The notes under the pieces are model-generated. The model was not told the origin of the DNA. It worked only from the letters and a program-made list of their open reading frames with translations, and searched no databases. Positions 1 to 47,499 of a stretch of 64,000 nt of DNA are shown one piece after another. The stretch lies in the NCBI GenBank assembly GCA_000092065.1, contig CP000591.1; one strand, written 5' to 3'. The position numbers and the translations under genes were made by a program. Every line of letters starts with the position of its first letter. The stretch's first letter is position 1. This stretch comes from Ostreococcus lucimarinus (taxonomy: Eukaryota).

Positions 1-3000
1 GCGGCGGCGATTGGTTCGAGCTCGGTGATCTTTGGTACCGCTTTGGCGCTGAAAGTGATTCCGAGGCCGATGATGCAAGTGTTGGCCATCTTGCTCGCGT
101 CGACGGTGGCGCCGCTGTTGGGCGTATACGTCGAAGAGTTGCGTTTGCACCGTACGTCGACGAGGCGTACGAGACTGATGATATTGTCGGACTGCTCGCT
201 TTACGGTTCGTGGGACGCCGTCGCCGGCACTGTGGCGTGGGCATGCGCCTTCAACCAGTCCGCTGACGCCTTCGGCCCCGCGCTAGCGCAGAGTTCATTT
301 GTCGCGTTTATCGTCGCCGCCGCGTGTCGTTGGATGCGAGCCATGTACGTATTGTACGTTATCGATCACTGGATCATTCAGACGGTCGCCGCGATGTCGC
401 AAGAGTTCACAGAGACGGTGTCGCGAGCGACCGTTGTCGTTATGGAAGAAGTTTCGCGAGCGCCGATCGTCGTTAAGGAAACAGTTTCGCGAGTTTCTGT
501 CGCGATTGCGGAAACGGTGACCCAAACGCCCGACGTGGTTTCGCACAATGACGAATCTCCGCAACCAGTCGCAGAGCCGAAGATGCACGAACGCTCGGAC
601 AATAACGAAGCCGCCGTCGCGAGCGTAAAAATGCGGGTTGCGAGAGAACCTCAGCCAGTTGTCATGGAGTCGGCGCCTTCATCCGACGCCGCGCCTGTAG
701 CAGGCGAAAGCGTGAGTGTCACTCAGCAGCCCGATGAACGGCGTATTGAGTACGCGCCTCCGTATACCGCGGTAATTCGTGAGCAGGATCCTCGTCCAGA
801 ACCGCCGCGTGTCGTATACGCGCCCGCGTTTGTCGTGGTGGAAGAGGCATCGACGTCGTCTTCTACGGAATCCGACGTCACTCAACCGCTCGAGTCAAAG
901 CGTCGCCGTCGACAGCGGAAGCGACAGTATCGCCGCCGTGAGTCGCTGGCGAAGAATACTATAGACATGAGCGAGATTGTGTCGAAAGAAGTTAACATAG
1001 CGCTGAACATGGGCGTTTCGATTGAGGCGGAGCTTCAGCGCATGTTGGATCGACGTCAATCGACGCTGAACGACATGAAAAACCAGCAAGCGAATCCAAT
1101 TTCTATCGCGCAAGTGGAAGCGGATATTGCCGCGCTGCGTGCTGAGCTGAGACGAGCCACGACATCACGCGAACAATTTCAACGAGCTCAAACGTCGTAT
1201 GAGAGCGATCTAGAGATGTGGATGGAATCGATACGCGCGGCGGCGGCGGTCTCGCGATTGGACTACGCAATCGATTCACTAAAAAACGCATCGGTCGCCG
1301 ACGACCCGCAGGTCAAGGAACTCATTGATCAAAGGGCTGTTTGGGGGTTGCGTTTGGTCAGCTCTCAAATATTTACGATTGTTGAATTGCAGGATTCACT
1401 TGACTCTGGGGAAGCACGTTCTTCCGCGCGCATAGCAGAATTACGAGGAGCTATAGAAAGTTTGGAGCTCAAATTGACTCGTTTGCAAGAAGAAAAGACG
1501 CAGAGCGTCGATAACCGTATTCTTTTGGAGGATCGTCTGCAGAAATTGAATCTTGAAATCGATTCTGTTCGGGAAAGAGAGCGCGTTGCGCAAGAAGACT
1601 GGCAAAGAGAGCGCCTGCGCCTGGAAGTTGAGCTCGAAGCTTCAGTCAAGGAACTTCAAACTGCCACGAGAACCGTCGACGACGCTCTCAAGGCGAAGTT
1701 AGAACTCCTTGCTAAGCTGCAGACCGCTCAAGATCAGAGCGACACTGATGCAGAGGCGATTCGGCGTCTCGAACATGAAACTGAAACTCTGCAAACGAAG
1801 CTCAAGTCCCTCACCGAGCAGCTATCTGTCGCAAATGCTAGTGTTGAACAAATCAATTCGCGTCGATTTGACTTAGAATCGCAACTGCGAGCAAAGGCAA
1901 CTGAGTTAGACTTGGCAAACGCCAATCGTGCCGATACTTCATTAGTTGAAGAGCTGAGGCGTCAAGTGAAGAATCTATCTACGGAGATCTGTTGGCTCAG
2001 AGATCAAAAATCGAGAGAAGGAAGCGAAGCAGAAGCAGTACTTCAAAAGCAACTCGCAGAGGCTCGTACGCAACTCGAAATCCAGCGAAATGAATTAGAA
2101 ATCGAAGCCAAGGCTGAAATTTCCGAATTGAAGCGATCCATGGATGTTATCCGCGAGGAGATGGAACGTCTAACGTCGGAGATGTCAGAGAAGACTGAAA
2201 AGAGTTTAGAGTATCAACGAATAGTTCAAGAGCGTCAAAAAGAGATTGAAAGTCTTACGAAAAACAAAGAGTTGGCCGCTCGCGCAATCGATGAGTCAAA
2301 GAAAAACTTGGCTCAGGCTCAGGAAGCGCTGGAGACGAAGCAAAAAGCACTAGATGACCGTGTTTCTCAGGTTGCAAGCTTATCTTTGGATCTTGCAGCG
2401 AGTGAGGAGAAAACGCTCACTCTTGAGCGCGAACTCTCAGCATCATGTCAACGCTCACAAGAGCTCGAAGAACTCATCTCCAGTCTTCGCTCGTACTCAG
2501 AATCACGCGATGCCTTGCTTGCTGACATAGATTTACTTCTCGGCAACGAAAACGACGAGCGCGAAGCGATGTTACGAGGCAGTAAGAACGCATCTGACCT
2601 CGTTGAGCGCATACAGAAACGTCTTCGAAGAGAAGTTGTCCTCGAGAAGAAGCTTGACCAAGCTCAGCTGCTCGAACAGGTAGGTCTCACAGTCGAAGAA
2701 TTGAAAACACGTGAAGCCGCATCACTTTGGTGGAAGGATCTAGTTCAAATTGGTTCTAAGGCTCTGGAAACGATTCAGAGCACCGCAGTGGATCTATCTA
2801 AGGGGACAGTCACGGCTTCATTGTTAGAGCGATCGATCAGTCTACGAGCGAAAGAGCTGCAGAATATCACCAGCGAACCGCAATACCAGAGATTGCAAAA
2901 AAGCTTCAATGATCTGAAGCGTCTTTCCGAAGCCGCAGAGCGAAAGTTGCAAGAAAAAGAGCGAAAGATAAAATCATTGAAGGCCGATAGCAAAGAGTCA

Positions 3001-6000
3001 GCTGCGGAATTGAAGGCGCTTACCTCAGAATTGGCCTCCGTGAAAGAAGATCTTAAATACATCAGAGATATTGCAAAAGAAGAGCGTGATGAACAGATTC
3101 AGCGCATAGAATCTCTCATGTTAGAGGTTGATTCATTCGAAAACGCCAAATTTGATGGTGAAGAGGCAGTACGCTTTAGAAACGAAGCAGCGAAGCTTCG
3201 AGGGATGAAAATTCGGTTGGAAGCTGAGCTCAAGTTGAGTCAAGATCTCGCAGAGACAGCGAGCAGCGAACTGGCTCGAGCTCGCGAAGAGCACGATGTC
3301 GTCATCACGCAGTTGAGTGAAGAAATAGCAGCTCTTGAACTCGACATCACAGTTAAATCTGAAGCGATCGAAAAGTTGGAGTCAAAGACGAATAATATTG
3401 AGGTCAAGTTGGGCTCCGATCTTGAGAGCGCGTTAGCAAAACTGAACACCACGCTCGAAGAACTCGATAAAAAGTCCACGGATTTTGCATCTCTTGAAAG
3501 CGCATCGGTTGAACAAAAGCGAAACTTTGAGAAGCACGTGGACGAGCTTGAAAAGCGCCTGGGTGCTTCCGAGGCTGAAGTGCAAAGATTGATACAAGAT
3601 AGAGATCTGGCTATTGAGGCCAAAGACAACGAAATGGTTTCGAAAATTCTTTCGCAGTCCGCTATCGTGTCCGATCTCGAGTCTGAGCGCGACGCGCTGC
3701 GTTCGCAGCTCGCCGACCTTTCGTCCGCTCGCGACTCTGAGCTGGCGTCTGTGCGCGCGGATCTTGAGTCCCAGCTTCGCGAGCGCGAGGAGGACATCGA
3801 GCGCGTGCGTTCTGAGCTCGACGAGTCCAAGGCGGCACTTGAGTCTGAGCGCGACGCGCTGCAGTCGGAGCTCGAGCGCGTGCTTTCTCAGGTGCCCGAG
3901 GTTGACGCGTCGCAGTCCGCTATCGTGTCCGATCTCGAGTCTGAGCGCGACGCGCTGCGTTCGCAGCTCGCCGACCTTTCGTCCGCTCGCGACTCTGAGT
4001 TGGCGTCTGTGCGCGCGGATCTTGAGTCCCAGCTTCGCGAGCGCGAGGAGGACATCGAGCGCGTGCGTTCTGAGCTCGACGAGTCCAAGGCGGCACTTGA
4101 GTCTGAGCGCGACGCGCTGCAGTCGGAGCTCGAGCGCGTGCTTTCTCAGGTGCCCGAGGTTGACGCGTCGCAGTCCGCTGCCGTGTCCGATCTCGAGTCT
4201 GAGCGCGACGCGCTGCGTTCGCAGCTCGCCGACCTTTCGTCCGCTCGCGACTCTGAGTTGGCGTCTGTGCGCGCGGATCTTGAGTCCCAGCTTCGCGAGC
4301 GCGAGGAGGACATCGAGCGCGTGCGTTCTGAGCTCGACGAGTCCAAGGCGGCACTTGAGTCTGAGCGCGACGCGCTGCAGTCGGAGCTCGAGCGCGTGCT
4401 TTCTCAGGTGCCCGAGGTTGACGCGTCGCAGTCCGCTATCGTGTCCGATCTCGAGTCTGAGCGCGACGCGCTGCGTTCGCAGCTCGCCGACCTTTCGTCC
4501 GCTCGCGACTCTGAGTTGGCGTCTGTGCGCGCGGATCTTGAGTCCCAGCTTCGCGAGCGCGAGGAGGACATCGAGCGCGTGCGTTCTGAGCTCGACGAGT
4601 CCAAGGCGGCACTTGAGTCTGAGCGCGACGCGCTGCAGTCGGAGCTCGAGCGCGTGCTTTCTCAGGTGCCCGAGGTTGACGCGTCGCAGTCCGCTGCCGT
4701 GTCCGATCTCGAGTCTGAGCGCGACGCGCTGCGTTCGCAGCTCGCCGACCTTTCGTCCGCTCGCGACTCTGAGTTGGCGTCTGTGCGCGCGGATCTTGAG
4801 TCCCAGCTTCGCGAGCGCGAGGAGGACATCGAGCGCGTGCGTTCTGAGCTCGACGAGTCCAAGGCGGCACTTGAGTCTGAGCGCGACGCGCTGCAGTCGG
4901 AGCTCGAGCGCGTGCTTTCTCAGGTGCCCGAGGTTGACGCGTCGCAGTCCGCTATCGTGTCCGATCTCGAGTCTGAGCGCGACGCGCTGCGTTCGCAGCT
5001 CGCCGACCTTTCGTCCGCTCGCGACTCTGAGTTGGCGTCTGTGCGCGCGGATCTTGAGTCCCAGCTTCGCGAGCGCGAGGAGGACATCGAGCGCGTGCGT
5101 TCTGAGCTCGACGAGTCCAAGGCGGCACTTGAGTCTGAGCGCGACGCGCTGCAGTCGGAGCTCGAGCGCGTGCTTTCTCAGGTGCCCGAGGTTGACGCGT
5201 CGCAGTCCGCTGCCGTGTCCGATCTCGAGTCTGAGCGCGACGCGCTGCGTTCGCAGCTCGCCGACCTTTCGTCCGCTCGCGACTCTGAGTTGGCGTCTGT
5301 GCGCGCGGATCTTGAGTCCCAGCTTCGCGAGCGCGAGGAGGACATCGAGCGCGTGCGTTCTGAGCTCGACGAGTCCAAGGCGGCACTTGAGTCTGAGCGC
5401 GACGCGCTGCAGTCGGAGCTCGAGCGCGTGCTTTCTCAGGTGCCCGAGGTTGACGCGTCGCAGTCCGCTGCCGTGTCCGATCTCGAGTCTGAGCGCGACG
5501 CGCTGCGTTCGCAGCTCGCCGACCTTTCGTCCGCTCGCGACTCTGAGTTGGCGTCTGTGCGCGCGGATCTTGAGTCCCAGCTTCGCGAGCGCGAGGAGGA
5601 CATCGAGCGCGTGCGTTCTGAGCTCGACGAGTCCAAGGCGGCACTTGAGTCTGAGCGCGACGCGCTGCAGTCGGAGCTCGAGCGCGTGCTTTCTCAGGTG
5701 CCCGAGGTTGACGCGTCGCAGTCCGCTGCCGTGTCCGATCTCGAGTCTGAGCGCGACGCGCTGCGTTCGCAGCTCGCCGACCTTTCGTCCGCTCGCGACT
5801 CTGAGTTGGCGTCTGTGCGCGCGGATCTTGAGTCCCAGCTTCGCGAGCGCGAGGAGGACATCGAGCGCGTGCGTTCTGAGCTCGACGAGTCCAAGGCGGC
5901 ACTTGAGTCTGAGCGCGACGCGCTGCAGTCGGAGCTCGAGCGCGTGCTTTCTCAGGTGCCCGAGGTTGACGCGTCGCAGTCCGCTGCCATGTCCGATCTC

Positions 6001-9000
6001 GAGTCTGAGCGCGACGCGCTGCGTTCGCAGCTCTCTGAGCTTCGTCAAATGTCCTCCGAATCCATCGCAGGACTCCAGCAGCAATTAGTCGCATTTTCGG
6101 CGGAGGCGGACTCTGCGGCTTCCTTGAGAAAAACAGTTAAAGAGTTGAAGGCAACTATCAGACAGCGCGAAAATTTGCTTTCTGAAACGGTGTTCGATCC
6201 GATGTTGAATGATGACTTGGACCGTATGAACGATGAGCTTGCATCGAAGAGTGCGGAACTAGATTCTGCACGGACGAAGTTGCAGTCGACTCTTAATAAG
6301 TTAAAAGAACGCGAGGAGCAGGCTGAATCTTCGCAAGCTGTTGCAAGTGCTGTCATAGATGAGATCCGCGCCGAGCTTTTGAATGCAAACGAAAAGTTGG
6401 CTGCTCGTGAGTCATACGCCAACGCTGTTGAGTTGGCGCTGCGGTCAGAACTCACAGAAAGAGAGAAAGAAATTGCGCTTTTGCGTGTCAAGGTAGCTAA
6501 AATTCTCGATGACAGCACGAACAAGCAGACAAGTCTCACCACTGCGCTCGATTCTGCGCAGTCTGAGATTGAGCGCCTCACTCGCGAGCTCGAGGATGTT
6601 GAGCAGAGCAAGCAAGTGGCCATGAAGGAGTCATTTGAGCGCAACGAATCGCAGATTGCGTCTCTGAACGCCGCGCACCGCGAGTTGGATCAGCGCCTGC
6701 GAGACGAGCTCGACGCGGCGCTCAAAGCGAAGGCAAGTCTTGAGAAGGAGCTCAGCGACCGCGCGGAATCCACCGCTGCTACCGAAACAGCGAAGCGCAA
6801 CGCCGAAGCACTGAGCGAAAGCTTGCAATCGCAGCTTGATGCACTGTCCACGCAGCGTGCTGAGCTCGAGCAGCGGCTGGTCAAGCGCGAGGAGGAGCTC
6901 GTCGCTGAGCTTGACGCAGCCAAGCATGAAGCCACAGCGCAGGCCGCACGTTTTGCACAACTTGGCGAGGCGGCCTCAGATCACGCACACGACGAGGTTG
7001 ATAAACTTAAGTCCGAAGTGGAACGACTCGAGTTTGAGCTCGGCGCTGTGAAAAACGAGCTGACAAGCGCGACGTCGACTGCGAAAGCGGACATTGCGAG
7101 GCTTACGGATGAACTTGCAAGCGCCAGCGCCGCGCGAGACGCCGTGGCTGAAACCGCTCATCCAGAAGAAGACGGGTCATCGGAGTCCGCATCGGCGTTC
7201 GAAGCCATGAGACGCGACATGACTCGTCTCGAGTCGGAGCTTGCCGCCGCTCTCGCGGAGCTTGCGGAGCTCGAATCGCCTCGCGAGTCAGAGTCCTCAG
7301 ATACTGAAGCTATTCGCGAGTTCACCACTGCGCTCGATTCTGCGCAGTCTGAGATTGAGCGCCTCACTCGCGAGCTCGAGGATGTTGAGCAGAGCAAGCA
7401 AGTGGCCATGAAGGAGTCATTTGAGCGCAACGAATCGCAGATTGCGTCTCTGAACGCCGCGCACCGCGAGTTGGATCAGCGCCTGCGAGACGAGCTCGAC
7501 GCGGCGCTCAAAGCGAAGGCAAGTCTTGAGGAGCGCAGCGACCGCGCGGAATCCACCGCTGCTACCGAAACAGCGAAGCGCAACGCCGAAGCACTGAGCG
7601 AAAGCTTGCAATCGCAGCTTGATGCACTGTCCACGCAGCGTGCTGAGCTCGAGCAGCGGCTAGTCAAGCGCGAGGAGGAGCTCGTCGCTGAGCTTGACGC
7701 AGCCAAGCATGAAGCCACAGCGCAGGCCGCACGTTTTGCACAACTTGGCGAGGCGGCCTCAGATCACGCACACGACGAGGTTGATAAACTTAAGTCCGAA
7801 GTGGAACGACTCGAGTTTGAGCTCGGCGCTGTGAAAAACGAGCTGACAAGCGCGACGTCGACTGCGAAAGCGGACATTGCGAGGCTTACGGATGAACTTG
7901 CAAGCGCCAGCGCCGCGCGAGACGCCGTGGCTGAAACCGCTCATCCAGAAGAAGACGGGTCATCGGAGTCCGCATCGGCGTTCGAAGCCATGAGACGCGA
8001 CATGACTCGTCTCGAGTCGGAGCTTGCCGCCGCTCTCGCGGAGCTTGCGGAGCTCGAATCGCCTCGCGAGTCAGAGTCCTCAGATACTGAAGCTATTCGC
8101 GAGTTCACCACTGCGCTCGATTCTGCGCAGTCTGAGATTGAGCGCCTCACTCGCGAGCTCGAGGATGTTGAGCAGAGCAAGCAAGTGGCCATGAAGGAGT
8201 CATTTGAGCGCAACGAATCGCAGATTGCGTCTCTGAACGCCGCGCACCGCGAGTTGGATCAGCGCCTGCGAGACGAGCTCGACGCGGCGCTCAAAGCGAA
8301 GGCAAGTCTTGAGAAGGAGCGCAGCGACCGCGCGGAATCCACCGCTGCTACCGAAACAGCGAAGCGCAACGCCGAAGCACTGAGCGAAAGCTTGCAATCG
8401 CAGCTTGATGCACTGTCCACGCAGCGTGCTGAGCTCGAGCAGCGGCTAGTCAAGCGCGAGGAGGAGCTCGTCGCTGAGCTTGACGCAGCCAAGCATGAAG
8501 CCACAGCGCAGGCCGCACGTTTTGCACAACTTGGCGAGGCGGCCTCAGATCACGCACACGACGAGGTTGATAAACTTAAGTCCGAAGTGGAACGACTCGA
8601 GTTTGAGCTCGGCGCTGTGAAAAACGAGCTGACAAGCGCGACGTCGACTGCGAAAGCGGACATTGCGAGGCTTACGGATGAACTTGCAAGCGCCAGCGCC
8701 GCGCGAGACGCCGTGGCTGAAACCGCTCATCCAGAAGAAGACGGGTCATCGGAGTCTGCATCGGCGTTCGAAGCCATGAGACGCGACATGACTCGTCTCG
8801 AGTCGGAGCTTGCCGCCGCTCTCGCGGAGCTTGCGGAGCTCGAATCGCCTCGCGAGTCAGAGTCCTCAGATACTGAAGCTATTCGCGAGTTCACCACTGC
8901 GCTCGATTCTGCGCAGTCTGAGATTGAGCGCCTCACTCGCGAGCTCGAGGATGTTGAGCAGAGCAAGCAAGTGGCCATGAAGGAGTCATTTGAGCGCAAC

Positions 9001-10632
9001 GAATCGCAGATTGCGTCTCTGAACGCCGCGCACCGCGAGTTGGATCAGCGCCTGCGAGACGAGCTCGACGCGGCGCTCAAAGCGAAGGCAAGTCTTGAGA
9101 AGGAGCTCAGCGACCGCGCGGAATCCACCGCTGCTACCGAAATAGCGAAGCGCAACGCCGAAGCACTGAGCGAAAGCTTGCAATCGCAGCTTGATGCTTC
9201 TCGCGCTGAAGAGGCGAAGCTCCGTGATGAGCTCAATCATTTTCAGGAGCTTGCACGAGAGGAGATTTCAGCACTCCATAATGAAATTACCGAAATAAAA
9301 TTCACGTCGCAAGAAAGTCAAGCGTCGCTTGGAGAATCACCGTGGCCGAGTATCACAATTTCCACCCTTGCGGGTCTTAACGAGATGATGTCTCGGGGAT
9401 CTGAATTCGGGAGTGAAGGCTTAGATTGGCTTGAGCACGCCGCACACGAAGTACAAGCGCTTGAAAAGTCCGTGTTGGATGCGACGGCTGAGCTCGAGTT
9501 ACGAGAGAATGAATATGAACAAACTATTGCACAGTTGCAAGATAGTGTTCGTGACGCGGAAACTGACCTCAACTCGCAGAAGAGTCTGGCTAGCGCAGCT
9601 TTGAGCGACGTCGAGCATCTGAATGATAAATTGGCCGAACGCGATGAGGAGCTGGCATCACTCCGGCTCGAACTCGCGAACTTGGTTTCAGATGACGTCA
9701 CACGCGAGCTTGAATTAACGATCAGTAATTTGAGGATACAGCTGACCGCAAAAGATAACGAGTTGAATGGAGCTGTCGCGTCGTTGAATGATTTGGAAAA
9801 CGACAAGAGAGCTATAGAAGAAGCAATGTCCGAACTACAAGCTGCAGCTGACATGCAAGCAGCTCGAGTGCAAACATCGATTGAGCAAATATCAAGTTTG
9901 AATGTTGAGCTGGCCAAGCGCTCTGCAGCTCTTGATGCTAGTTGGGATAATCTTTCTCACGCTGAATCACGCGCACGTTTTGCCGAGCAAGAGCGAGACG
10001 ACGTTCGCCGGCTTTTTGAGGAGCGACTTGCTGTGAAAGAGCGAGCACTACGCGAGACACAAGGAGATGTTGAACATCTTCGTCAGACGGTGCGTAATCT
10101 TCAGGATAAATTGAAAGCACATAGATATGCACGTTCTGAGACCGAAGCTGGTCATCCAGAAGAAGACGGGTCATCGGAGTCTGCATCGGCGTTCGAAGCC
10201 ATGAGACGCGACATGACTCGTCTCGAGTCGGAGCTTGCCGCCGCTCTCGCGGAGCTTGCGGAGCTCGAATCGCCTCGCGAGTCAGAGTCCTCAGATACTG
10301 AAGCTATTCGCGAGTTCACCACTGCGCTCGATTCTGCGCAGTCTGAGATTGAGCGCCTCACTCGCGAGCTCGAGGATGTTGAGCAGAGCAAGCAAGTGGC
10401 CATGAAGGAGTCATTTGAGCGCAACGAATCGCAGATTGCGTCTCTGAACGCCGCGCACCGCGAGTTGGATCAGCGCCTGCGAGACGAGCTCGACGCGGCG
10501 CTCAAAGCGAAGGCAAGTCTTGAGAAGGAGCTCAGCGACCGCGCGGAATCCACCGCTGCTACCGAAACAGCGAAGCGCAACGCCGAAGCACTGAGCGAAA
10601 GCTTGCAATCGCAGCTTGATGGAAAAACTTGA
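1..10632 (+). CDS. Giant coiled-coil repeat protein, 5' portion. The frame-1 ORF is open from the window edge, so the gene is truncated at its 5' end. It carries N-terminal hydrophobic segments and long heptad-rich repeats, and ends at a 1-nt frame break that probably joins it to the 10619..17740 ORF.
   Basis: There is no stop in frame 1 from nt 1. The start at 25 in the ORF track is a GTG, so the ORF continues upstream. Translation is E/L/R/A/S/Q-rich with heptad periodicity, as expected for coiled coil. It contains the 258-bp and about 783-bp in-frame tandem repeat arrays. The same repeat units continue in frame in the downstream ORF. Confidence 0.8.
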   Translation, partial: AAAIGSSSVIFGTALALKVIPRPMMQVLAILLASTVAPLLGVYVEELRLHRTSTRRTRLMILSDCSLYGSWDAVAGTVAWACAFNQSADAFGPALAQSSFVAFIVAAACRWMRAMYVLYVIDHWIIQTVAAMSQEFTETVSRATVVVMEEVSRAPIVVKETVSRVSVAIAETVTQTPDVVSHNDESPQPVAEPKMHERSDNNEAAVASVKMRVAREPQPVVMESAPSSDAAPVAGESVSVTQQPDERRIEYAPPYTAVIREQDPRPEPPRVVYAPAFVVVEEASTSSSTESDVTQPLESKRRRRQRKRQYRRRESLAKNTIDMSEIVSKEVNIALNMGVSIEAELQRMLDRRQSTLNDMKNQQANPISIAQVEADIAALRAELRRATTSREQFQRAQTSYESDLEMWMESIRAAAAVSRLDYAIDSLKNASVADDPQVKELIDQRAVWGLRLVSSQIFTIVELQDSLDSGEARSSARIAELRGAIESLELKLTRLQEEKTQSVDNRILLEDRLQKLNLEIDSVRERERVAQEDWQRERLRLEVELEASVKELQTATRTVDDALKAKLELLAKLQTAQDQSDTDAEAIRRLEHETETLQTKLKSLTEQLSVANASVEQINSRRFDLESQLRAKATELDLANANRADTSLVEELRRQVKNLSTEICWLRDQKSREGSEAEAVLQKQLAEARTQLEIQRNELEIEAKAEISELKRSMDVIREEMERLTSEMSEKTEKSLEYQRIVQERQKEIESLTKNKELAARAIDESKKNLAQAQEALETKQKALDDRVSQVASLSLDLAASEEKTLTLERELSASCQRSQELEELISSLRSYSESRDALLADIDLLLGNENDEREAMLRGSKNASDLVERIQKRLRREVVLEKKLDQAQLLEQVGLTVEELKTREAASLWWKDLVQIGSKALETIQSTAVDLSKGTVTASLLERSISLRAKELQNITSEPQYQRLQKSFNDLKRLSEAAERKLQEKERKIKSLKADSKESAAELKALTSELASVKEDLKYIRDIAKEERDEQIQRIESLMLEVDSFENAKFDGEEAVRFRNEAAKLRGMKIRLEAELKLSQDLAETASSELARAREEHDVVITQLSEEIAALELDITVKSEAIEKLESKTNNIEVKLGSDLESALAKLNTTLEELDKKSTDFASLESASVEQKRNFEKHVDELEKRLGASEAEVQRLIQDRDLAIEAKDNEMVSKILSQSAIVSDLESERDALRSQLADLSSARDSELASVRADLESQLREREEDIERVRSELDESKAALESERDALQSELERVLSQVPEVDASQSAIVSDLESERDALRSQLADLSSARDSELASVRADLESQLREREEDIERVRSELDESKAALESERDALQSELERVLSQVPEVDASQSAAVSDLESERDALRSQLADLSSARDSELASVRADLESQLREREEDIERVRSELDESKAALESERDALQSELERVLSQVPEVDASQSAIVSDLESERDALRSQLADLSSARDSELASVRADLESQLREREEDIERVRSELDESKAALESERDALQSELERVLSQVPEVDASQSAAVSDLESERDALRSQLADLSSARDSELASVRADLESQLREREEDIERVRSELDESKAALESERDALQSELERVLSQVPEVDASQSAIVSDLESERDALRSQLADLSSARDSELASVRADLESQLREREEDIERVRSELDESKAALESERDALQSELERVLSQVPEVDASQSAAVSDLESERDALRSQLADLSSARDSELASVRADLESQLREREEDIERVRSELDESKAALESERDALQSELERVLSQVPEVDASQSAAVSDLESERDALRSQLADLSSARDSELASVRADLESQLREREEDIERVRSELDESKAALESERDALQSELERVLSQVPEVDASQSAAVSDLESERDALRSQLADLSSARDSELASVRADLESQLREREEDIERVRSELDESKAALESERDALQSELERVLSQVPEVDASQSAAMSDLESERDALRSQLSELRQMSSESIAGLQQQLVAFSAEADSAASLRKTVKELKATIRQRENLLSETVFDPMLNDDLDRMNDELASKSAELDSARTKLQSTLNKLKEREEQAESSQAVASAVIDEIRAELLNANEKLAARESYANAVELALRSELTEREKEIALLRVKVAKILDDSTNKQTSLTTALDSAQSEIERLTRELEDVEQSKQVAMKESFERNESQIASLNAAHRELDQRLRDELDAALKAKASLEKELSDRAESTAATETAKRNAEALSESLQSQLDALSTQRAELEQRLVKREEELVAELDAAKHEATAQAARFAQLGEAASDHAHDEVDKLKSEVERLEFELGAVKNELTSATSTAKADIARLTDELASASAARDAVAETAHPEEDGSSESASAFEAMRRDMTRLESELAAALAELAELESPRESESSDTEAIREFTTALDSAQSEIERLTRELEDVEQSKQVAMKESFERNESQIASLNAAHRELDQRLRDELDAALKAKASLEERSDRAESTAATETAKRNAEALSESLQSQLDALSTQRAELEQRLVKREEELVAELDAAKHEATAQAARFAQLGEAASDHAHDEVDKLKSEVERLEFELGAVKNELTSATSTAKADIARLTDELASASAARDAVAETAHPEEDGSSESASAFEAMRRDMTRLESELAAALAELAELESPRESESSDTEAIREFTTALDSAQSEIERLTRELEDVEQSKQVAMKESFERNESQIASLNAAHRELDQRLRDELDAALKAKASLEKERSDRAESTAATETAKRNAEALSESLQSQLDALSTQRAELEQRLVKREEELVAELDAAKHEATAQAARFAQLGEAASDHAHDEVDKLKSEVERLEFELGAVKNELTSATSTAKADIARLTDELASASAARDAVAETAHPEEDGSSESASAFEAMRRDMTRLESELAAALAELAELESPRESESSDTEAIREFTTALDSAQSEIERLTRELEDVEQSKQVAMKESFERNESQIASLNAAHRELDQRLRDELDAALKAKASLEKELSDRAESTAATEIAKRNAEALSESLQSQLDASRAEEAKLRDELNHFQELAREEISALHNEITEIKFTSQESQASLGESPWPSITISTLAGLNEMMSRGSEFGSEGLDWLEHAAHEVQALEKSVLDATAELELRENEYEQTIAQLQDSVRDAETDLNSQKSLASAALSDVEHLNDKLAERDEELASLRLELANLVSDDVTRELELTISNLRIQLTAKDNELNGAVASLNDLENDKRAIEEAMSELQAAADMQAARVQTSIEQISSLNVELAKRSAALDASWDNLSHAESRARFAEQERDDVRRLFEERLAVKERALRETQGDVEHLRQTVRNLQDKLKAHRYARSETEAGHPEEDGSSESASAFEAMRRDMTRLESELAAALAELAELESPRESESSDTEAIREFTTALDSAQSEIERLTRELEDVEQSKQVAMKESFERNESQIASLNAAHRELDQRLRDELDAALKAKASLEKELSDRAESTAATETAKRNAEALSESLQSQLDGKT
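408..545 (+). repeat. Imperfect 33-39 bp coding mini-repeats encoding E(T/E)VSRA.(V/I)VV, about 4 units
   Basis: Direct reading shows acagagacggtgtcgcgagcgaccgttgtcgtt / gaagtttcgcgagcgccgatcgtcgtt / acagtttcgcgagtttctgtcgcgatt. Translation shows ETVSRATVVV / EEVSRAPIVV / ETVSRVSVAI. Confidence 0.5.
3652..6033 (+). repeat. Tandem array of about 9.2 copies of a 258-bp (86-aa) in-frame coding repeat, here called repeat A. Copies are more than 99% identical.
   Basis: The period of 258 nt was read directly; for example tccgct(a/g)(t/c)cgtgtccgatctcgagtctgagcgcgacgcgctgcg recurs at 3659, 3917, 4175, 4433 and so on. Each unit encodes SQSA(I/A)VSDLESERDALRSQLADLSSARDSELASVRADLESQLREREEDIERVRSELDESKAALESERDALQSELERVLSQVPEVDA. 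Copies differ only by an atc/gcc (I/A) codon, and the last copy has A->M. Confidence 0.9.
6538..9190 (+). repeat. Tandem array of about 3.4 copies of a 783-786 bp (261/262-aa) in-frame coding repeat, here called repeat B
   Basis: Unit starts (accactgcgctcgattctgcgcagtctgagattgagcgc) lie at about 6538, 7324, 8107 and 8893. Copies are near-identical apart from an in-frame 3-nt indel (KELSDR versus EERSDR/KERSDR) and T/I substitutions. The array ends where the sequence diverges after cagcttgatgc at about 9190. Confidence 0.85.
10150..10619 (+). repeat. Partial copy of repeat B (about 470 bp, the 3' 60% of a unit), separated from the main B array by about 960 bp of unique coding sequence
   Basis: catccagaagaagacgggtcatcggagtc ... 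gcttgcaatcgcagcttgatg is nearly identical to 7157-7626, 7940-8409 and 8723-9192. Confidence 0.8.
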
Positions 10633-13600
10633 GTCATTGCGCCGTGAGCACGAAACAAAACTGAACGACATGCGTGAGTCTGCAACACAACAACGCGCGG
10701 ATCTTGAGTCCCAGCTTCGCGAGCGCGAGGAGGACATCGAGCGCGTGCGTTCTGAGCTCGACGAGTCCAAGGCGGCACTTGAGTCTGAGCGCGACGCGCT
10801 GCAGTCGGAGCTCGAGCGCGTGCTTTCTCAGGTGTCTGAGTCTGAGTCTCTGCAGTCCGCTGCCGTGTCCGATCTCGAGTCTGAGCGCGACGCGCTGCGT
10901 TCGCAGCTCGCCGACCTTTCGTCCGCTCGCGACTCTGAGTTGGCGTCTGTGCGCGCGGATCTTGAGTCCCAGCTTCGCGAGCGCGAGGAGGACATCGAGC
11001 GCGTGCGTTCTGAGCTCGACGAGTCCAAGGCGGCACTTGAGTCTGAGCGCGACGCGCTGCAGTCGGAGCTCGAGCGCGTGCTTTCTCAGGTGTCTGAGTC
11101 TGAGTCTCTGCAGTCCGCTGCCGTGTCCGATCTCGAGTCTGAGCGCGACGCGCTGCGTTCGCAGCTCGCCGACCTTTCGTCCGCTCGCGACTCTGAGTTG
11201 GCGTCTGTGCGCGCGGATCTTGAGTCCCAGCTTCGCGAGCGCGAGGAGGACATCGAGCGCGTGCGTTCTGAGCTCGACGAGTCCAAGGCGGCACTTGAGT
11301 CTGAGCGCGACGCGCTGCAGTCGGAGCTCGAGCGCGTGCTTTCTCAGGTGTCTGAGTCTGAGTCTCTGCAGTCCGCTGCCGTGTCCGATCTCGAGTCTGA
11401 GCGCGACGCGCTGCGTTCGCAGCTCGCCGACCTTTCGTCCGCTCGCGACTCTGAGTTGGCGTCTGTGCGCGCGGATCTTGAGTCCCAGCTTCGCGAGCGC
11501 GAGGAGGACATCGAGCGCGTGCGTTCTGAGCTCGACGAGTCCAAGGCGGCACTTGAGTCTGAGCGCGACGCGCTGCAGTCGGAGCTCGAGCGCGTGCTTT
11601 CTCAGGTGTCTGAGTCTGAGTCTCTGCAGTCCGCTGCCGTGTCCGATCTCGAGTCTGAGCGCGACGCGCTGCGTTCGCAGCTCGCCGACCTTTCGTCCGC
11701 TCGCGACTCTGAGTTGGCGTCTGTGCGCGCGGATCTTGAGTCCCAGCTTCGCGAGCGCGAGGACGACATCGAGCGCGTGCGTTCTGAGCTCGACGAGTCC
11801 AAGGCGGCACTTGAGTCTGAGCGCGACGCGCTGCAGTCGGAGCTCGAGCGCGTGCTTTCTCAGGTGCCCGAGGTTGACGCGTCGCAGTCCGCTGCCGTGT
11901 CCGATCTCGAGTCTGAGCGCGACGCGCTGCGTTCGCAGCTCGCCGACCTTTCGTCCGCTCGCGACTCTGAGTTGGCGTCTGTGCGCGCGGATCTTGAGTC
12001 CCAGCTTCGCGAGCGCGAGGAGGACATCGAGCGCGTGCGTTCTGAGCTCGACGAGTCCAAGGCGGCACTTGAGTCTGAGCGCGACGCGCTGCAGTCGGAG
12101 CTCGAGCGCGTGCTTTCTCAGGTGCCCGAGGTTGACGCGTCGCAGTCCGCTGCCGTGTCCGATCTCGAGTCTGAGCGCGACGCGCTGCGTTCGCAGCTCG
12201 CCGACCTTTCGTCCGCTCGCGACTCTGAGTTGGCGTCTGTGCGCGCGGATCTTGAGTCCCAGCTTCGCGAGCGCGAGGAGGACATCGAGCGCGTGCGTTC
12301 TGAGCTCGACGAGTCCAAGGCGGCACTTGAGTCTGAGCGCGACGCGCTGCAGTCGGAGCTCGAGCGCGTGCTTTCTCAGGTGCCCGAGGTTGACGCGTCG
12401 CAGTCCGCTGCCGTGTCCGATCTCGAGTCTGAGCGCGACGCGCTGCGTTCGCAGCTCGCCGACCTTTCGTCCGCTCGCGACTCTGAGTTGGCGTCTGTGC
12501 GCGCGGATCTTGAGTCCCAGCTTCGCGAGCGCGAGGAGGACATCGAGCGCGTGCGTTCTGAGCTCGACGAGTCCAAGGCGGCACTTGAGTCTGAGCGCGA
12601 CGCGCTGCAGTCGGAGCTCGAGCGCGTGCTTTCTCAGGTGCCCGAGGTTGACGCGTCGCAGTCCGCTGCCGTGTCCGATCTCGAGTCTGAGCGCGACGCG
12701 CTGCGTTCGCAGCTCGCCGACCTTTCGTCCGCTCGCGACTCTGAGTTGGCGTCTGTGCGCGCGGATCTTGAGTCCCAGCTTCGCGAGCGCGAGGAGGACA
12801 TCGAGCGCGTGCGTTCTGAGCTCGACGAGTCCAAGGCGGCACTTGAGTCTGAGCGCGACGCGCTGCAGTCGGAGCTCGAGCGCGTGCTGGGAGAGTTGAG
12901 TCAGTCGACTTCGGCGCTTCGGCGCGTTGAGGAGGATCTCAATGCCGCTTTAAGCGACCGCGATGAGTTCGAAGAAGAGAGTGATCGTTTGCGTCGGCGT
13001 CTACCACGACTTGAACGAGAGCATAACGAGTTGGAGGATGCAATGCGCTTGGAAATGGACGAATTGGCTTCAAAGCTTGCAGCGATGTCAAAAGCGCGCG
13101 ATGATCTCGAGAAGGACATGATTGAGCAGAGTGATGGTCTGTACAAGGCACTTGGCAGTAGCCGCGAGGATCTGCAGCGAGAACTAAACGAGGGCAAGAA
13201 GTTACTTGCTCAACGTGAGGCCGAGCTAAAGCGTTTAACTGCCGATTTTTCGTTGAAAGAGCACGCAATTGAGTCTGAGCGAGAAGCACTTGCGACCGAA
13301 TTGGATCGACTGATACACAAGGTGCCAGCCTTGGAGTTGACTACGGCTGAACTAGAGGCTGAACGCGCGGAGTTGCGCGAAAAGCTTGATGATTTGATAG
13401 CAAATCGTGATCAGCTGGCGGCCAATCTGCGAACCGAGAACGATTCGATGTCAGCAGAACTGTCCATGACTCGAGAAGCTCTTGATGAACAATTCAATGC
13501 CGTTACAACACAGCTCCTTGAAACCGATGAGATCATCGACAAGATGCGCAAGGATAACGAAGCTGCAAAGGAAGCAGCAGAGAACGACCGCTTAGCGCTA

Positions 13601-17740: not shown

Positions 17741-17820
17741 GGAATGCATGCGATCACGGCAAACGATCGCCATAGCGCGCACCATAGCATTTAGATGTAC
17801 ACGATGAATGTGTCTAGAAA

Positions 17821-18552
17821 TCAAATCGCGCCCGATTCGCCGACGTGAAATTTCTTCGCCCCCAACTCCCTCGCCGCCACGCGCTGTTCCACGGCTCGCG
17901 CGTCACTGACGGGCGGTACCGCGCGCGCGTAATGTCGCATCGCGCGTCCAATATCACGCTCCTCTTCTTCCGCGTCGTCCCCCACCCCATAAAAACCCAC
18001 GAGCTCTAACAAACGATCCGGCTGCTTCGCCACCGCGTCTCTCGCCTCCGCCGCGCCGAGCGTCTCCTCCAACCCGCGCATCGCTTCTTCCAGCGCTCGC
18101 CCATCGCACAGCAGCAGTCCCGGTGCGAGCGTTATCTGCCGCCCTGAGATCCCCGCCACGCATCGTTTCACCATCAACACGCGCTTTACGAATTCGTCCT
18201 CGCGCAGCGCCAACAGCCTCGGCTCTCGCGCCGCGGACGCCGGCACGTCCAACCCGTGCGAGCCGCAATTTCCGTCGCCATCCACCGGGAACACGCGCAA
18301 CAGCGCGCGCACTTTCGATTCCAATCGCGCTGGATCGCGATACAGCGATTCGCGCGATGATTTCGTGACGATTTGTCGGCAGTGCGCGGCGCCCGTCCAA
18401 TTTCTCCAAAACTTTTCAACCGCGCGGTCGTTCGCGTCGGTGAACGCGCACTCGCCGTCGCCCGCGCTGCGCGCGCGCGCCGCGCGACTCGCCGCGCCCG
18501 AAGTCGACGTCGACGGCCCGCGCGACGGCGCGCGCGTGAAGTTTGCGCGCAT
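17821..18552 (-). CDS. Hypothetical protein (243 aa). It contains a VDGDGNC motif; any OTU-like cysteine protease relationship is speculative.
   Basis: The ATG at 18552 was verified (plus-strand cat at 18550-18552). The gene is convergent with the giant gene. Amino-acid composition looks like a real protein in the C-terminal two-thirds, but I recognise no confident homology. Confidence 0.35.
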   Translation of the reverse strand: MRANFTRAPSRGPSTSTSGAASRAARARSAGDGECAFTDANDRAVEKFWRNWTGAAHCRQIVTKSSRESLYRDPARLESKVRALLRVFPVDGDGNCGSHGLDVPASAAREPRLLALREDEFVKRVLMVKRCVAGISGRQITLAPGLLLCDGRALEEAMRGLEETLGAAEARDAVAKQPDRLLELVGFYGVGDDAEEEERDIGRAMRHYARAVPPVSDARAVEQRVAARELGAKKFHVGESGAI

Positions 18553-18578
18553 CTGAATGACGGCGTAACGTCTTCGCG

Positions 18579-19766: not shown

Positions 19767-19879
19767 CACCGATTCAGAGTCGTGCCGCGCGTCCGGCGCG
19801 CTCGTTCGCGCGCCGTCGCCGCCTCGCCAGTCTCACACCGCGCCGCGCCGCTTCGCGTCGCCGCCGCCGCGCGCGCGTC

Positions 19880-20656: not shown

Positions 20657-20753
20657 CGTTTCGTCGATCGTTCCGGGACTAGATTATCATCAATGAGAAA
20701 TTCAATTATTGTTTTACAAATCTTTCGTCGTCGGACGGTCTTGTAAGTCTCGA

Positions 20754-31707: not shown

Positions 31708-31973
31708 CGCGCGTTCGCGCGTCGCGCCGTCGCTCCCGCGGGCGCTCGCGCGCGCATCGTCACCACGCGCGTCGTGCGCGCGGACATGGTCGATCGGTCG
31801 GCGCGTTCTGCGGGCGCGCGGCGGCGTCGCGCGCAACGAGTGGCGCGCGCTCGCGCGTCGCTCGATGGGGTTCGACGTGTGCGGAATACGACGTTTGTGA
31901 AATGTTTGGTTTTTTATGCGCAACGCGATATTTTTGAAACGCGACGCCGCGGCGGCGGCGGCGGAGGCGACGA

Positions 31974-44596: not shown

Positions 44597-45053
44597 CTGC
44601 GTCGTCGTTTCGCCCGCGTTCGCGTCGTCGTCAGTCTCGCGCCTAACCGCCGCGGTCGATCATCATCTCCGCGTCCCTCACGCGCCCGTCCGAGCGCCGC
44701 TCGCGCCGCCGCTTCCCTCACCGCGCGCGCGCGAAACCTTACGCCTTCGCCTTTCGCGCGCGCGCGCCTCGCGCGCGTCGAATCGCGCGTCGAATCGCGT
44801 CACTCTCCCTCGCGCGCGACGATTCTCGTTCGAACGCGCGACGACCGCGTTCGTCTCGTCGCGCGTCGTCGCGCGTCGCGCGCGCGCGACCGCGCGACGC
44901 ACCTCGCGGACCGTCGCTCGCGCGCGTCGCTCGCGTGCGCGAGGCGATCGTTCGCGCGCCCGCGACGCGCGTCGTCGAGTGCGGCGCGGCGCGGTCGACC
45001 GAGGGCGACGACGCGGCGCGCGCGTCGAGACGAACGCGCTCGCGACGCGCGCG

Positions 45054-45488: not shown

Positions 45489-45498
45489 AGGGTGCGAA

Positions 45499-47316: not shown

Positions 47317-47499
47317 CGCGCGACGCTCGACGACGGCGACGACGGGTGGGGACGCGCGGGCGCGCGCGCGTCGACGCGCGATTCGTGGGACGACGACGAC
47401 GACGACGACGACGAAGACGACGGGACGACGACGACGACGACGCGGGACGCGGCGCGGTGCTCGAGCGAGGACGACGACGACGACGACGACGACGAATTG

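What the first reader, a model, noticed from the sequence alone, without database searches (positions are those of the whole stretch)
3652..6033. 258-bp coding repeat A at more than 99% identity in four arrays with block-wise variant structure
Array 1 is 3652-6033 (about 9 copies). Array 2 is 10690-12886 (about 8.5 copies). Arrays 3 and 4 are 13783-14425 and 15322-15963 (about 2.5 copies each). In array 1, copies differ only by an atc/gcc codon (I/A) arranged I,I,A,I,A,I,A,A,A. In array 2 a four-copy block of a SESESL variant is followed by a four-copy block of the PEVDAS variant. This pattern indicates very recent unequal crossing-over or gene conversion (concerted evolution) rather than ancient duplication. 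The high identity also means that copy numbers in any assembly are unreliable.
Basis: seen in the sequence. Interest (0 to 1): 0.6.

Follow-up and report, generated by a model that had tools for sequence, protein, structure and literature searches.

The report
Homogenised coding repeats, giant starch-binding protein
The near-identical 258-base repeats are real: they encode 86-residue helical modules of a roughly 6,000-residue, undescribed membrane-anchored starch-binding protein of the tiny green alga Ostreococcus lucimarinus, and they are kept alike by ongoing recombination (concerted evolution), a well-known process seen here in an unusually clear form.

Summary
Four arrays of a 258-bp unit (9.2, 8.5, 2.5 and 2.5 copies) lie at the stated coordinates, with the stated I/A and SESESL/PEVDAS variants.

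The window is nuclear DNA of Ostreococcus lucimarinus CCE9901. The arrays are coding modules of one giant gene. It has an N-terminal multi-pass membrane anchor, about 5,400 residues of helical stalk, and a C-terminal CBM20 starch-binding domain.

Concerted evolution is shown, not only inferred. A sister lineage (L017) has array 1 with the same copy number, and its units are identical to each other. Its unit differs from the window's unit at 11 fixed positions, in 6 synonymous and 4 non-synonymous codons. Another Ostreococcus species (L003) has the same architecture built from a 315-bp unit. GC3 rises with repeat copy number (0.78 in A, 0.64 in B, about 0.5 in C and unique sequence).

Copy numbers are not dependable. 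Ten short-read contigs break at the array edge, others collapse the arrays, and three long contigs give three different structures.

The reference also has a blunt +1 frameshift junction at 10621/10622. It lacks a 205-residue segment found in two other contigs.

The mechanism is ordinary. The protein appears to be undescribed.

The parts
1..3651 (+). U1: the 5' unique part of the giant gene. The start codon lies about 0.33 kb upstream of the window. U1 encodes the last hydrophobic helices of an N-terminal multi-pass membrane anchor, a conserved juxtamembrane segment (RRRRQRKRQYRRR ... DLEMWMESIRAAAAVSRLD ... QRAVWGLRLVSSQI), and non-repetitive coiled coil.
   Evidence: Translation. The full N-terminus is seen in P0071, P0268 and P0261. 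Kyte-Doolittle hydrophobic segments occur in all orthologues.
3652..6033 (+). Array 1 of repeat A: 9.2 copies of 258 bp (86 aa), with the order I,I,A,I,A,I,A,A,A.
   Evidence: L017 has the same copy number.
6034..6531 (+). U2: unique coiled-coil spacer.
   Evidence: It is 13.5% divergent from L017.
6532..9197 (+). Repeat B: 3.4 copies of 783-786 bp (261-262 aa) at about 99.5% identity. The copies differ by one in-frame 3-bp indel and three SNPs.
   Evidence: B is homogenised within the sister lineage too (P0261).
9198..9900 (+). U3: unique coiled-coil segment.
9901..10621 (+). A fifth, partial copy of repeat B, cut off at ...CAGCTTGATG.
10616..10632 (+). Frame break. A blunt junction at 10621/10622 joins the B unit to the last 72 bp of a C linker, out of frame by +1. 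ORF 25-10632 stops here and ORF 10616-17740 begins here (ATG at 10619).
10622..10693 (+). C-tail: the last 72 bp of the C linker (EKLESLRREHETKLND...), identical to 13709-13780 and 15248-15319.
10694..12888 (+). Array 2 of repeat A: 8.5 copies, four ending in SESESL followed by four ending in PEVDAS.
12889..13780 (+). C1: an 892-bp linker (297 aa of coiled coil). Together with the A array that follows, it forms a 1539-bp higher-order repeat.
   Evidence: A homologous linker is present in L003.
13781..14427 (+). Array 3 of repeat A: 2.5 copies.
14428..15319 (+). C2: the second copy of the 892-bp linker.
15320..15963 (+). Array 4 of repeat A: 2.5 copies.
   Evidence: Ten independent short-read contigs end at window 15739-15910.
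15964..17740 (+). U4: the unique 3' part. It encodes about 300 aa of coiled coil, a CBM20 starch-binding domain (Pfam match at about 16928-17116; modelled beta-domain at about 16925-17374), a conserved helix and an acidic tail, followed by the stop codon.
   Evidence: Pfam CBM_20 scores 32.6 bits against a cut-off of 23.3. There is a match to the glucoamylase starch-binding domain 1AC0. The AlphaFold model and Foldseek give a best hit to the STBD1 CBM20 domain 8x8k, TM 0.81.

Best explanation
The 258-bp repeat encodes an 86-residue, highly charged alpha-helical module. The module occurs about 22 times, in four arrays, inside one giant nuclear gene of Ostreococcus lucimarinus CCE9901.

The gene encodes three parts. 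An N-terminal multi-pass membrane anchor is followed by a helical, coiled-coil-type stalk of roughly 5,400 residues, built from unique segments and three nested repeat families: A (258 bp), B (786 bp), and a C linker that forms a 1539-bp higher-order unit together with an A array. The stalk ends in a C-terminal CBM20 starch-binding domain.

Shown here: the copies are kept almost identical, synonymous sites included, by concerted evolution. This means recurrent unequal exchange or slippage within arrays, plus gene conversion or exchange between arrays. New variants either spread through the arrays or are lost.

Inferred: the conversion is GC-biased, which would explain why GC3 rises with copy number.

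Also inferred: the protein tethers or spaces the plastid's single starch granule relative to a membrane, and the number of modules sets the stalk length. One module would add about 12.8 nm, and the fully extended stalk would be about 0.8 um.
For: Anatomy.

Organism: the neighbouring 395-aa and 243-aa proteins are exact matches to XP_001420240.1 and XP_001420400.1 of O. lucimarinus CCE9901. PRP8 and other eukaryotic genes flank the locus.

One gene:
- Collapsed assemblies join the N-terminal and C-terminal parts in frame (P0071 of 1994 aa, P0268 of 2421 aa).
- Orthologues are single ORFs of 4091, 4842, 3783+ and 2923 aa.

Concerted evolution:
- L017 array 1 has the same copy number. Seven of its 9 full units are identical to each other, and its two edge units are more divergent.
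- Eleven fixed differences separate it from the window consensus (6 synonymous and 4 non-synonymous codons), against 6.5% divergence in unique U1.
- All window units in all four arrays share one consensus.
- L003 has the same layout but a 315-bp unit at 94-98% identity and a 2517-bp higher-order repeat.
- The O. tauri type has yet another module.
- At the polymorphic codon the sister lineage has GTC (V). That is the single-step intermediate between the window's GCC (A) and ATC (I).

GC bias: GC3 is 0.77-0.78 in A, 0.64 in B, 0.51 in C and 0.47-0.58 in unique parts. In L003 it is 0.68 in arrays against 0.51-0.54 in linkers, and it is about 0.5 in the L005 orthologue, where no tandem repeat was detected.

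Reality in wild populations: ten contigs at 99.9-100% identity all break 55-225 bp inside the last unit.

Domains: CBM20 by Pfam, by PDB sequence match and by fold. Hydrophobic N-terminal helices. A four-unit AlphaFold model is almost entirely helical, mean pLDDT 82.
Against: - The polarity of the 11 fixed differences is unknown because there is no close outgroup. How much of the change happened in the CCE9901 lineage is therefore not known.
- The sister lineage's downstream arrays were not recovered cleanly. The L004/L018 contig is a mosaic of two haplotypes.
- The GC3 gradient could partly reflect the composition of whichever unit happened to be amplified. The A units of the two species are homologous, so they are not fully independent cases.
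- In the reference the gene is broken by a +1 frameshift at 10621/10622. In this strain or this assembly it is therefore not a single ORF.
- Nothing here shows expression, plastid targeting or starch binding. The N-terminus of the O. lucimarinus model does not look like a typical transit peptide.
- Coiled-coil pairing, as opposed to single helices, was not tested.
Confidence: 0.85

Rival explanations
1. A single recent burst of amplification, with no ongoing homogenisation. All copies would descend from one unit that was amplified very recently in CCE9901, and they have simply not had time to diverge.
For: Identity is extremely high and few variants exist. The sorted blocks in array 2 look like local expansions.
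Against: The arrays, their positions and, for array 1, even the copy number are shared with a lineage that is 6.5% divergent. The multi-array layout is shared with a more distant species. The arrays are therefore old. Within each lineage the units are identical, yet they differ between lineages at synonymous sites. That requires turnover after the split. A burst that replaced every array in place is itself concerted evolution by unequal exchange.
Confidence: 0.08
2. An assembly artefact. The near-identical copies, or the four-array arrangement, would have been produced by the assembler or by consensus polishing and would not exist in the genome.
For: No two assemblies agree on the structure. 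The reference has an out-of-frame blunt junction exactly where array 2 begins. It also lacks a 205-aa segment found in L004 and L017. All units in the first array of L019 are the plain consensus, as polishing would produce.
Against: Ten independent short-read contigs stop at the same array edge. Arrays with the same unit occur in every long contig and in the sister lineage, and array 1 has the same length in L017. Variant positions in the reference (I/A, the SESESL patch, E>D) are discrete and in frame, which fits real sequence. The repeats themselves are therefore real. What remains doubtful is the exact copy number and order downstream of 10621.
Confidence: 0.05
3. Purifying selection on the protein sequence alone keeps the units alike, without recombination.
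For: The module is a conserved structural element, and the LESERDAL motif is conserved across species.
Against: Selection on the protein cannot keep synonymous sites identical across 22 copies. Nor can it fix six synonymous differences in every unit of one lineage. Most variants that do exist within the genome change the protein (I/A, E/D, SESESL/PEVDAS).
Confidence: 0.02

Closest known systems
Concerted evolution of intragenic coding tandem repeats (textbook cases such as polyubiquitin, involucrin, mucins, spider silk genes, yeast FLO adhesins and nebulin super-repeats; from general knowledge)
   Same: In-frame head-to-tail units. Near-identity within a genome that includes synonymous sites. 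Lineage-specific fixed differences, more divergent edge units, higher-order repeat units, and differences in copy number between genomes.
   Different: Here homogenisation operates at three nested levels (258 bp, 786 bp, 1539 bp). It also acts between arrays separated by 4.6 kb of unrelated coding sequence. Related species use units of different length (258 bp against 315 bp) in the same architecture.
SAGA1/SAGA2 of Chlamydomonas (CBM20 plus a long helical region; they localise and shape the pyrenoid starch sheath; PMC6744930, PMC13167743)
   Same: A non-enzymatic protein that combines a CBM20 starch-binding domain with a very long alpha-helical, coiled-coil-like region proposed to span a fixed distance.
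   Different: SAGA1 has 1,626 aa with CBM20 near the N-terminus (residues 214-280) and no membrane anchor. This protein has about 6,000 aa, a C-terminal CBM20 and an N-terminal membrane domain. No Chlamydomonas-type Rubisco-binding motif is present. By general knowledge, Ostreococcus has no pyrenoid. [quoted passage not shown] The earlier paper (PMC6744930) mentions homologues in more distant pyrenoid-containing algae.
STBD1 (genethonin-1) of animals (architecture from general knowledge; CBM20 structure 8x8k)
   Same: An N-terminal hydrophobic membrane anchor with a C-terminal CBM20 that tethers a glucan particle to a membrane. Its CBM20 domain is the best structural match to the model made here (TM 0.81).
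   Different: STBD1 is small (about 360 aa) and has no giant coiled-coil stalk. Sequence identity in the CBM is only 16%. There is no evidence of common descent beyond the domain.
MFP1 together with PTST2/PTST3 of Arabidopsis (a thylakoid-anchored coiled-coil protein that binds a coiled-coil CBM48 protein and so sets the sites of starch granule initiation; described)
   Same: The same three parts in functional terms: a membrane anchor, a coiled coil and a glucan-binding module.
   Different: In Arabidopsis the parts are split over two proteins and the module is CBM48. Here they are fused in one polypeptide with CBM20. The CBM48-type model AMPK1_CBM scores below its cut-off (20.9 against 26.8 bits). 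Homology of the stalk to MFP1 was not tested.

Membership tests
Coding tandem repeat under concerted evolution | Head-to-tail copies that keep the reading frame | tested here: met
   The period is 258 bp (86 codons). All four arrays lie in open frames.
Coding tandem repeat under concerted evolution | Copies within a genome are more alike than orthologous copies between lineages, with fixed differences shared by all copies | tested here: met
   Window units differ by a mean of 0.95 nt outside the patch. Seven of 9 L017 units are identical to each other. Eleven fixed differences separate the two consensus units.
Coding tandem repeat under concerted evolution | Homogeneity extends to synonymous sites, which rules out selection on the protein as the cause | tested here: met
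   Six of the 10 differing codons are synonymous. Among the window's units the only variation outside the variant patch is the I/A codon and two single-copy changes, T>C at 3742 and G>C (E>D) at 11764.
Coding tandem repeat under concerted evolution | Edge units escape homogenisation | tested here: met
   The first two units of L017 differ from the rest by 6 and 2 nt. The window's first unit carries a private T>C change.
Coding tandem repeat under concerted evolution | Copy number and unit order vary between genomes of the same lineage | tested here: inconclusive
   Array 1 has 9.2, 9.2 and 10.2 copies in the window, L017 and L018. Downstream arrays have 8.5/2.5/2.5 copies in the window, 13.2/3.5 in L004, and 3.5/3.5 in L019, where arrays 1 and 2 appear merged into about 17.4 copies. 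However, L004/L018 is a mosaic contig and L019 may be collapsed, so real polymorphism cannot be separated from assembly error.
CBM20 starch-binding domain (Pfam PF00686) | Score above the curated Pfam gathering cut-off | tested here: met
   32.6 bits against a cut-off of 23.3, at residues 322-384 of the C-terminal 591 aa.
CBM20 starch-binding domain (Pfam PF00686) | CBM20 beta-sandwich fold | tested here: met
   The AlphaFold beta-domain (residues 321-470) has pLDDT of about 88. The top Foldseek hits in the PDB are all CBM20 domains: STBD1, GDE5, glucoamylase, beta-amylase and CGTase.
CBM20 starch-binding domain (Pfam PF00686) | Conserved aromatic residues of the glucan-binding sites | tested here: inconclusive
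   In the alignment to the glucoamylase starch-binding domain 1AC0, the W of GDWET aligns with CDWIT, LW with IW, and EYKF with EYKY. These residues are invariant among orthologues: W344, W347, W363 and Y375-Y379. Not all canonical site residues were checked.
CBM20 starch-binding domain (Pfam PF00686) | Binds starch or malto-oligosaccharides | not testable with these tools
   This needs a binding assay.
SAGA1/SAGA2 family (Volvocales) | Rubisco-binding motifs of the Chlamydomonas type | tested here: not met
   The pattern [DN]W[RK]xx[LIVA] does not occur in either ORF.
SAGA1/SAGA2 family (Volvocales) | N-terminal CBM20 followed by the helical region, with no membrane anchor | tested here: not met
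   Here CBM20 is C-terminal and the N-terminus is hydrophobic. SAGA1's layout is taken from PMC6744930.
PTST family (CBM48 with coiled coil) | A CBM48 / AMPK beta-type glycogen-binding module | tested here: not met
   PF16561 scores 20.9 bits, below its cut-off of 26.8. CBM_20 is the better match and passes its own cut-off.

The most novel reading that the evidence does not exclude
The gene encodes a previously undescribed protein that is conserved in Ostreococcus, with a more distant GC-rich homologue (P0082). It fuses the functions of a membrane anchor, a coiled-coil spacer and a starch-binding module. [quoted passage not shown] Its stalk length, comparable to the cell's own diameter if extended, would be tuned by recombination-driven gain and loss of 86-residue modules. 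The repeat arrays would then be an evolvable molecular ruler, and natural alleles of different length, possibly including a deletion allele that lacks the whole B region as in L019, would differ in granule geometry.
Probability: 0.25. Interest if true: 0.7.

Novelty: new member of a known kind. Interest (0 to 1): 0.4.

Why it matters
As a case of repeat evolution this is a clean textbook example, not a new principle. It combines nested repeat levels, homogenisation between separated arrays, lineage-specific fixed synonymous differences, and a GC3 gradient that fits GC-biased conversion, all in a compact haploid genome.

The practical lesson is that this locus is misrepresented in the public assemblies examined. 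It is frameshifted in the reference window. It is collapsed to 1,994-2,421 aa in short-read metagenome assemblies. In an O. tauri annotation it is a 616-aa fragment named 'CBM20 domain-containing protein'. The gene has therefore gone unnoticed.

Its architecture (membrane anchor, very long helical stalk, CBM20) makes it a concrete candidate for an open question. That question is how Ostreococcus positions and divides its single starch granule at cell division (Ral et al. 2004, as cited in the paper read). It is also a candidate functional analogue of the MFP1-PTST2 and SAGA systems.

Tried and rejected
- Two scans of JGI metagenome contigs found nothing: one for the exact frameshift junction, one for the B-unit end that precedes it. 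Because even the control pattern is absent, the result says nothing about the junction.
- A protein search with the 205-aa segment that is absent from the window found nothing. A local tblastn against the window, L003, L005 and L006 also found nothing. The segment later turned up in P0261/L017, a cluster member that is not a representative.
- Exact look-ups failed for the 395-aa neighbour in the contig index and for ORF2 starting at ATG 10619. I therefore could not see how the reference annotation models the gene.
- I first treated L004 as an independent long-read structure of the CCE9901 type. Joining it with L018 and comparing it with L017 showed a mosaic of two haplotypes. Its copy numbers cannot be assigned to one genome.
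- L019 lacks U2, B and U3, and all units of its first array are the plain consensus. It may be an assembler shortcut, so I do not count it as proof of a deletion allele.
- Searches of the fetched proteins for the junction peptide found none, but only one of those proteins covers that region.
- Literature searches for this protein or for repeat evolution in Ostreococcus found nothing specific.
- Rfam and tRNA scans of the window were empty.
- The idea that the PEVDAS patch is a proline hinge and SESESL a rigid variant has only weak support. In a single-sequence model, pLDDT is 47-69 at PEVDA against about 90 at SESES, and both patches are drawn as helix.

Full report
OBSERVATION. Tandem Repeats Finder reports four arrays with a 258-bp period. 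They lie at 3652-6033 (9.2 copies, 99% matches), 10694-12888 (8.5 copies, 99%), 13781-14427 (2.5 copies, 97%) and 15320-15963 (2.5 copies, 100%). I cut every unit in register and compared it with the consensus.
- In array 1 the fifth codon is ATC (I) or GCC (A), in the order I,I,A,I,A,I,A,A,A.
- In array 2, four units end in SESESL and the next four end in PEVDAS. The difference is a patch of 9 nucleotides within 15.
- The only other differences are one T>C in the first unit (window 3742) and one G>C (E>D, window 11764).
- Outside the patch, the 18 full units differ by 0.95 nt on average and by 4 at most.
- Array 1 is interleaved rather than block-wise. It contains (I,A)x3, which 10 of 126 random orders also contain.

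CONTEXT WITHIN THE WINDOW. A self-comparison shows that repeat A is one of three nested repeat families.
- Repeat B (783-786 bp, 261-262 aa) has 3.4 copies at 6532-9197 and a partial fifth copy at 9901-10621. Identity among the copies is about 99.5%.
- An 892-bp linker C occurs twice (12889-13780 and 14428-15319), and its last 72 bp occur a third time (10622-10693).
- C together with the following A array forms a 1539-bp higher-order repeat (12242-14424 versus 13781-15963, 99.1%). Arrays 3 and 4 are therefore two copies of that higher-order unit.
- Everything lies in two long ORFs on the + strand, 25-10632 (3,535 codons) and 10616-17740 (2,374 codons).

WHAT THE GENE IS.
- Organism. The neighbouring 395-aa and 243-aa ORFs are exact matches to XP_001420240.1 and XP_001420400.1 of Ostreococcus lucimarinus CCE9901, on a 593,542-bp record. 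PRP8, PTH2, an alpha-glucan phosphorylase, SF1, RAD50 and a kinesin flank the locus. This is nuclear DNA of a picoeukaryotic green alga.
- C-terminus. The last 591 aa carry a CBM20 starch-binding domain. Pfam scores it at 32.6 bits against a cut-off of 23.3. It matches the glucoamylase starch-binding domain 1AC0. An AlphaFold model has a confident beta-domain whose best PDB matches are all CBM20 domains, first the STBD1 domain 8x8k at TM 0.81.
- N-terminus. It starts about 0.33 kb upstream of the window. Full-length relatives show 3-6 hydrophobic helices there.
- Stalk. The region between the two ends is predicted helical. Its Pfam matches are to coiled-coil families, nearly all below their cut-offs. 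A four-unit model is almost entirely helix, mean pLDDT 82.
- Orthologues. They are single giant ORFs: 4,091 aa (L005), 4,842 aa (L006), 3,783+ aa (L017) and 2,923 aa for the O. tauri type. Synteny is conserved in L003. Short-read assemblies that collapse the repeats join the N-terminal and C-terminal parts in frame (P0071, P0268).
- Conclusion on the gene. I therefore read the two window ORFs as one gene of about 6,000 codons.
- Prior description. I found no named description of it. The closest is a 616-aa C-terminal fragment in an O. tauri annotation, named only 'CBM20 domain-containing protein'. Literature searches were empty.

TEST OF CONCERTED EVOLUTION. L017 is a 148.7-kb metagenome contig of a sister lineage. 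It is colinear with window 1-10563 at 93.4% identity, and the alignment has no gaps in the arrays.
- Its array 1 has the same 9 full units plus a partial one. Seven of the full units are identical to each other. The first two (edge) units differ by 6 and 2 nt.
- The L017 consensus differs from the window consensus at 11 of 258 positions, in 10 codons of which 6 are synonymous. None of these states occurs in any unit of any of the window's four arrays.
- Unique U1 is 6.5% divergent between the two.
- So units are identical within a genome and differ between genomes, synonymous sites included. That is the defining signature of concerted evolution. It excludes selection on the protein as the cause.
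- At the polymorphic codon, L017 has GTC (V), one step from both GCC and ATC.
- The layout is older still. L003, a long pilon-polished contig of another Ostreococcus species with the same flanking genes, has an array directly after U1 (P0074). It then has three or more higher-order repeats of [array + C-type linker] with a period of 2517 bp. Its unit is 315 bp (51+54 aa) at 94-98% identity.
- The O. tauri type uses yet another module.
- Because the multi-array layout predates these lineages while the window's arrays 1 and 2-4 show no fixed difference, homogenisation must also act between arrays that lie 4.6 kb apart.
- Repeat B behaves the same way. The three B copies of the sister lineage share many substitutions that are absent from the window's copies.

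A COMPOSITIONAL SIGNATURE. GC3 is 0.77-0.78 in the A arrays, 0.64 in B, 0.51 in C and 0.47-0.58 in unique parts. In L003 it is 0.68 in arrays against 0.51-0.54 in linkers. In the L005 orthologue, where TRF found no tandem repeat of period up to 500 bp, it is about 0.5 along the stalk. GC3 therefore rises with the amount of repeat turnover, as GC-biased gene conversion predicts. This is an inference, not a demonstration.

HOW RELIABLE ARE THE COPY NUMBERS? The repeats exist in wild populations. Ten independent short-read contigs from Tara and other marine samples are 99.9-100% identical to the window, and all end 55-225 bp inside the last A unit. L002 ends at the same edge. The scaffold L001 and the proteins P0071 and P0268 collapse the arrays to one or two copies. 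Long contigs disagree with one another.
- L017 supports the reference for the first 10.5 kb.
- L018/L004 has 10.2 units in array 1. It then has B x1.8, a unique 205-aa segment, A x13.2, one C linker and A x3.5. This contig switches between 100% window-type and 100% L017-type sequence even within unique U1. It is therefore a mosaic of two haplotypes, either a chimeric consensus or a recombinant.
- L019 is 308 kb and 99.8-100% window-type. It reads U1 - A x17.4 - C - A x3.5 - C - A x3.5 - U4, without U2, B or U3. All units of its first array are the plain consensus. It is either an assembler shortcut between arrays 1 and 2, or a deletion allele produced by recombination between those arrays.
- No two structures agree.

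THE FRAME BREAK. At 10621/10622 a B unit (...CAGCTTGATG) is joined bluntly to the last 72 bp of a C linker (GAAAAACTTGAG...). In intact C copies those bases are preceded by ...GACAAGGTC. The join is out of frame by +1, which is why there are two ORFs. Both L004 and L017 instead continue from the post-U3 B copy into a 205-aa segment (APHGASGD...) that is absent from the whole window. Both ORFs are otherwise intact over 17.7 kb. The lesion is therefore either very recent in strain CCE9901 or an error of the reference assembly, such as a clone deletion or a misjoin. I could not decide between these.

MECHANISM AND FUNCTION.
- Shown: the anatomy, the organism, the CBM20 domain, and concerted evolution within and between arrays.
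- Inferred: unequal sister-chromatid exchange or replication slippage accounts for local expansions, namely the SESESL and PEVDAS blocks and the (I,A) dimers. Gene conversion or exchange between arrays accounts for identity between arrays. The conversion is GC-biased.
- Inferred from architecture only: the protein links a membrane to the starch granule. This resembles STBD1 (membrane anchor plus CBM20) and the MFP1-PTST2 pair (thylakoid anchor, coiled coil, glucan-binding module).
- Taking 0.1485 nm per residue (general knowledge), one module adds about 12.8 nm. The 22 modules add about 290 nm, and the whole stalk would be about 0.8 um. That is of the order of the cell's diameter. The protein more likely wraps the granule or forms a network than stands upright.
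- It is not a member of the SAGA family. The domain order differs, there is a membrane anchor, and there are no Rubisco-binding motifs. It is also not a PTST protein, because the CBM48 model scores below its cut-off.

VERDICT. The evolutionary process is a known one, seen here in a very clear form. The gene that hosts the repeats seems to be undescribed and is poorly represented in public assemblies. That is the more interesting lead.

Noticed in passing
window 10616-10632 (junction at 10621/10622): A blunt, out-of-frame (+1) join of a B repeat unit to the last 72 bp of a C linker splits the giant gene into two ORFs. An ATG sits at 10619. This is either a recent mutation in the strain or an error in the reference assembly.
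   Followed up: partly
L004 4021-4635, and the 3' end of the L017 gene (P0261 residues about 3624-3783): A 205-aa coiled-coil segment (APHGASGD...) follows the post-U3 B copy in two other contigs. Its two alleles are roughly 90% identical by eye. It is absent from the whole 64-kb window.
   Followed up: partly
window 6532-9197 and 9901-10621: A second coding repeat, B (783-786 bp, 261-262 aa), has 3.4 plus 0.9 copies at about 99.5% identity, with an in-frame 3-bp indel. The sister lineage's three tandem copies share many substitutions of their own, so B also evolves in concert. The post-U3 copy in L017 is 100% identical to the window over about 300 bp, which is unexplained.
   Followed up: partly
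window 3652-17740, by segment: GC3 rises with repeat copy number: 0.78 in A, 0.64 in B, 0.51 in C and 0.47-0.58 in unique parts. L003 shows the same contrast (0.68 against 0.51-0.54). This fits GC-biased gene conversion.
   Followed up: partly
L018+L004 (ENA ERZ10646538 contig_11424): This long contig switches between 100% CCE9901-type and 100% sister-type sequence, including a switch inside unique U1 at about 2.0-2.4 kb. It is either a chimeric consensus of two co-occurring strains or a real recombinant between haplotypes that are 6.5% divergent.
   Followed up: partly
L019 about 13850-21930 (ENA ERZ10646592 contig_26746): This CCE9901-type contig reads U1 - A x17.4 - C - A x3.5 - C - A x3.5 - U4, with U2, B and U3 missing. 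The copy number of its first array is close to the sum of arrays 1 and 2. It is either a deletion allele from recombination between arrays or an assembler shortcut.
   Followed up: partly
window unit positions 244-258 plus 1-2, for example 11093-11109: The PEVDAS-to-SESESL patch removes the only proline of the unit and creates a (TCTGAG)x2.5 micro-repeat. In a single-sequence AlphaFold model the PEVDA patches have pLDDT 47-69 and the SESES patches about 90. The proline patch might be a hinge.
   Followed up: partly
window 28771-31977 (- strand): An alpha-glucan (starch) phosphorylase gene (Pfam PF00343, E-value 6e-285) lies 11 kb from the CBM20 gene, with PRP8, PTH2 and two small genes in between. 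The proximity may be coincidence.
   Followed up: no
window 19188-19253: A perfect 24-bp x2.8 coding repeat lies in the 395-aa gene. Several wild contigs carry a 387-aa form of that gene (8 aa shorter), which matches the loss of one 24-bp unit.
   Followed up: partly
window 44750-47500 and 59260-59600: Dense CG-rich low-complexity repeats (CG, CGA/GAC and 13-51-bp periods) lie in regions of 69-73% GC. Many long antisense ORFs in the window are side effects of this composition.
   Followed up: no
P0007 versus P0076 (L005-type species): Two assemblies of the same orthologue differ by about 130 aa of extra, moderately diverged repeat (NGARDELEQNLRAQIDAISGARNDIETQLREREAEL...) in the region homologous to repeat A. 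That region seems prone to expansion across the genus.
   Followed up: no
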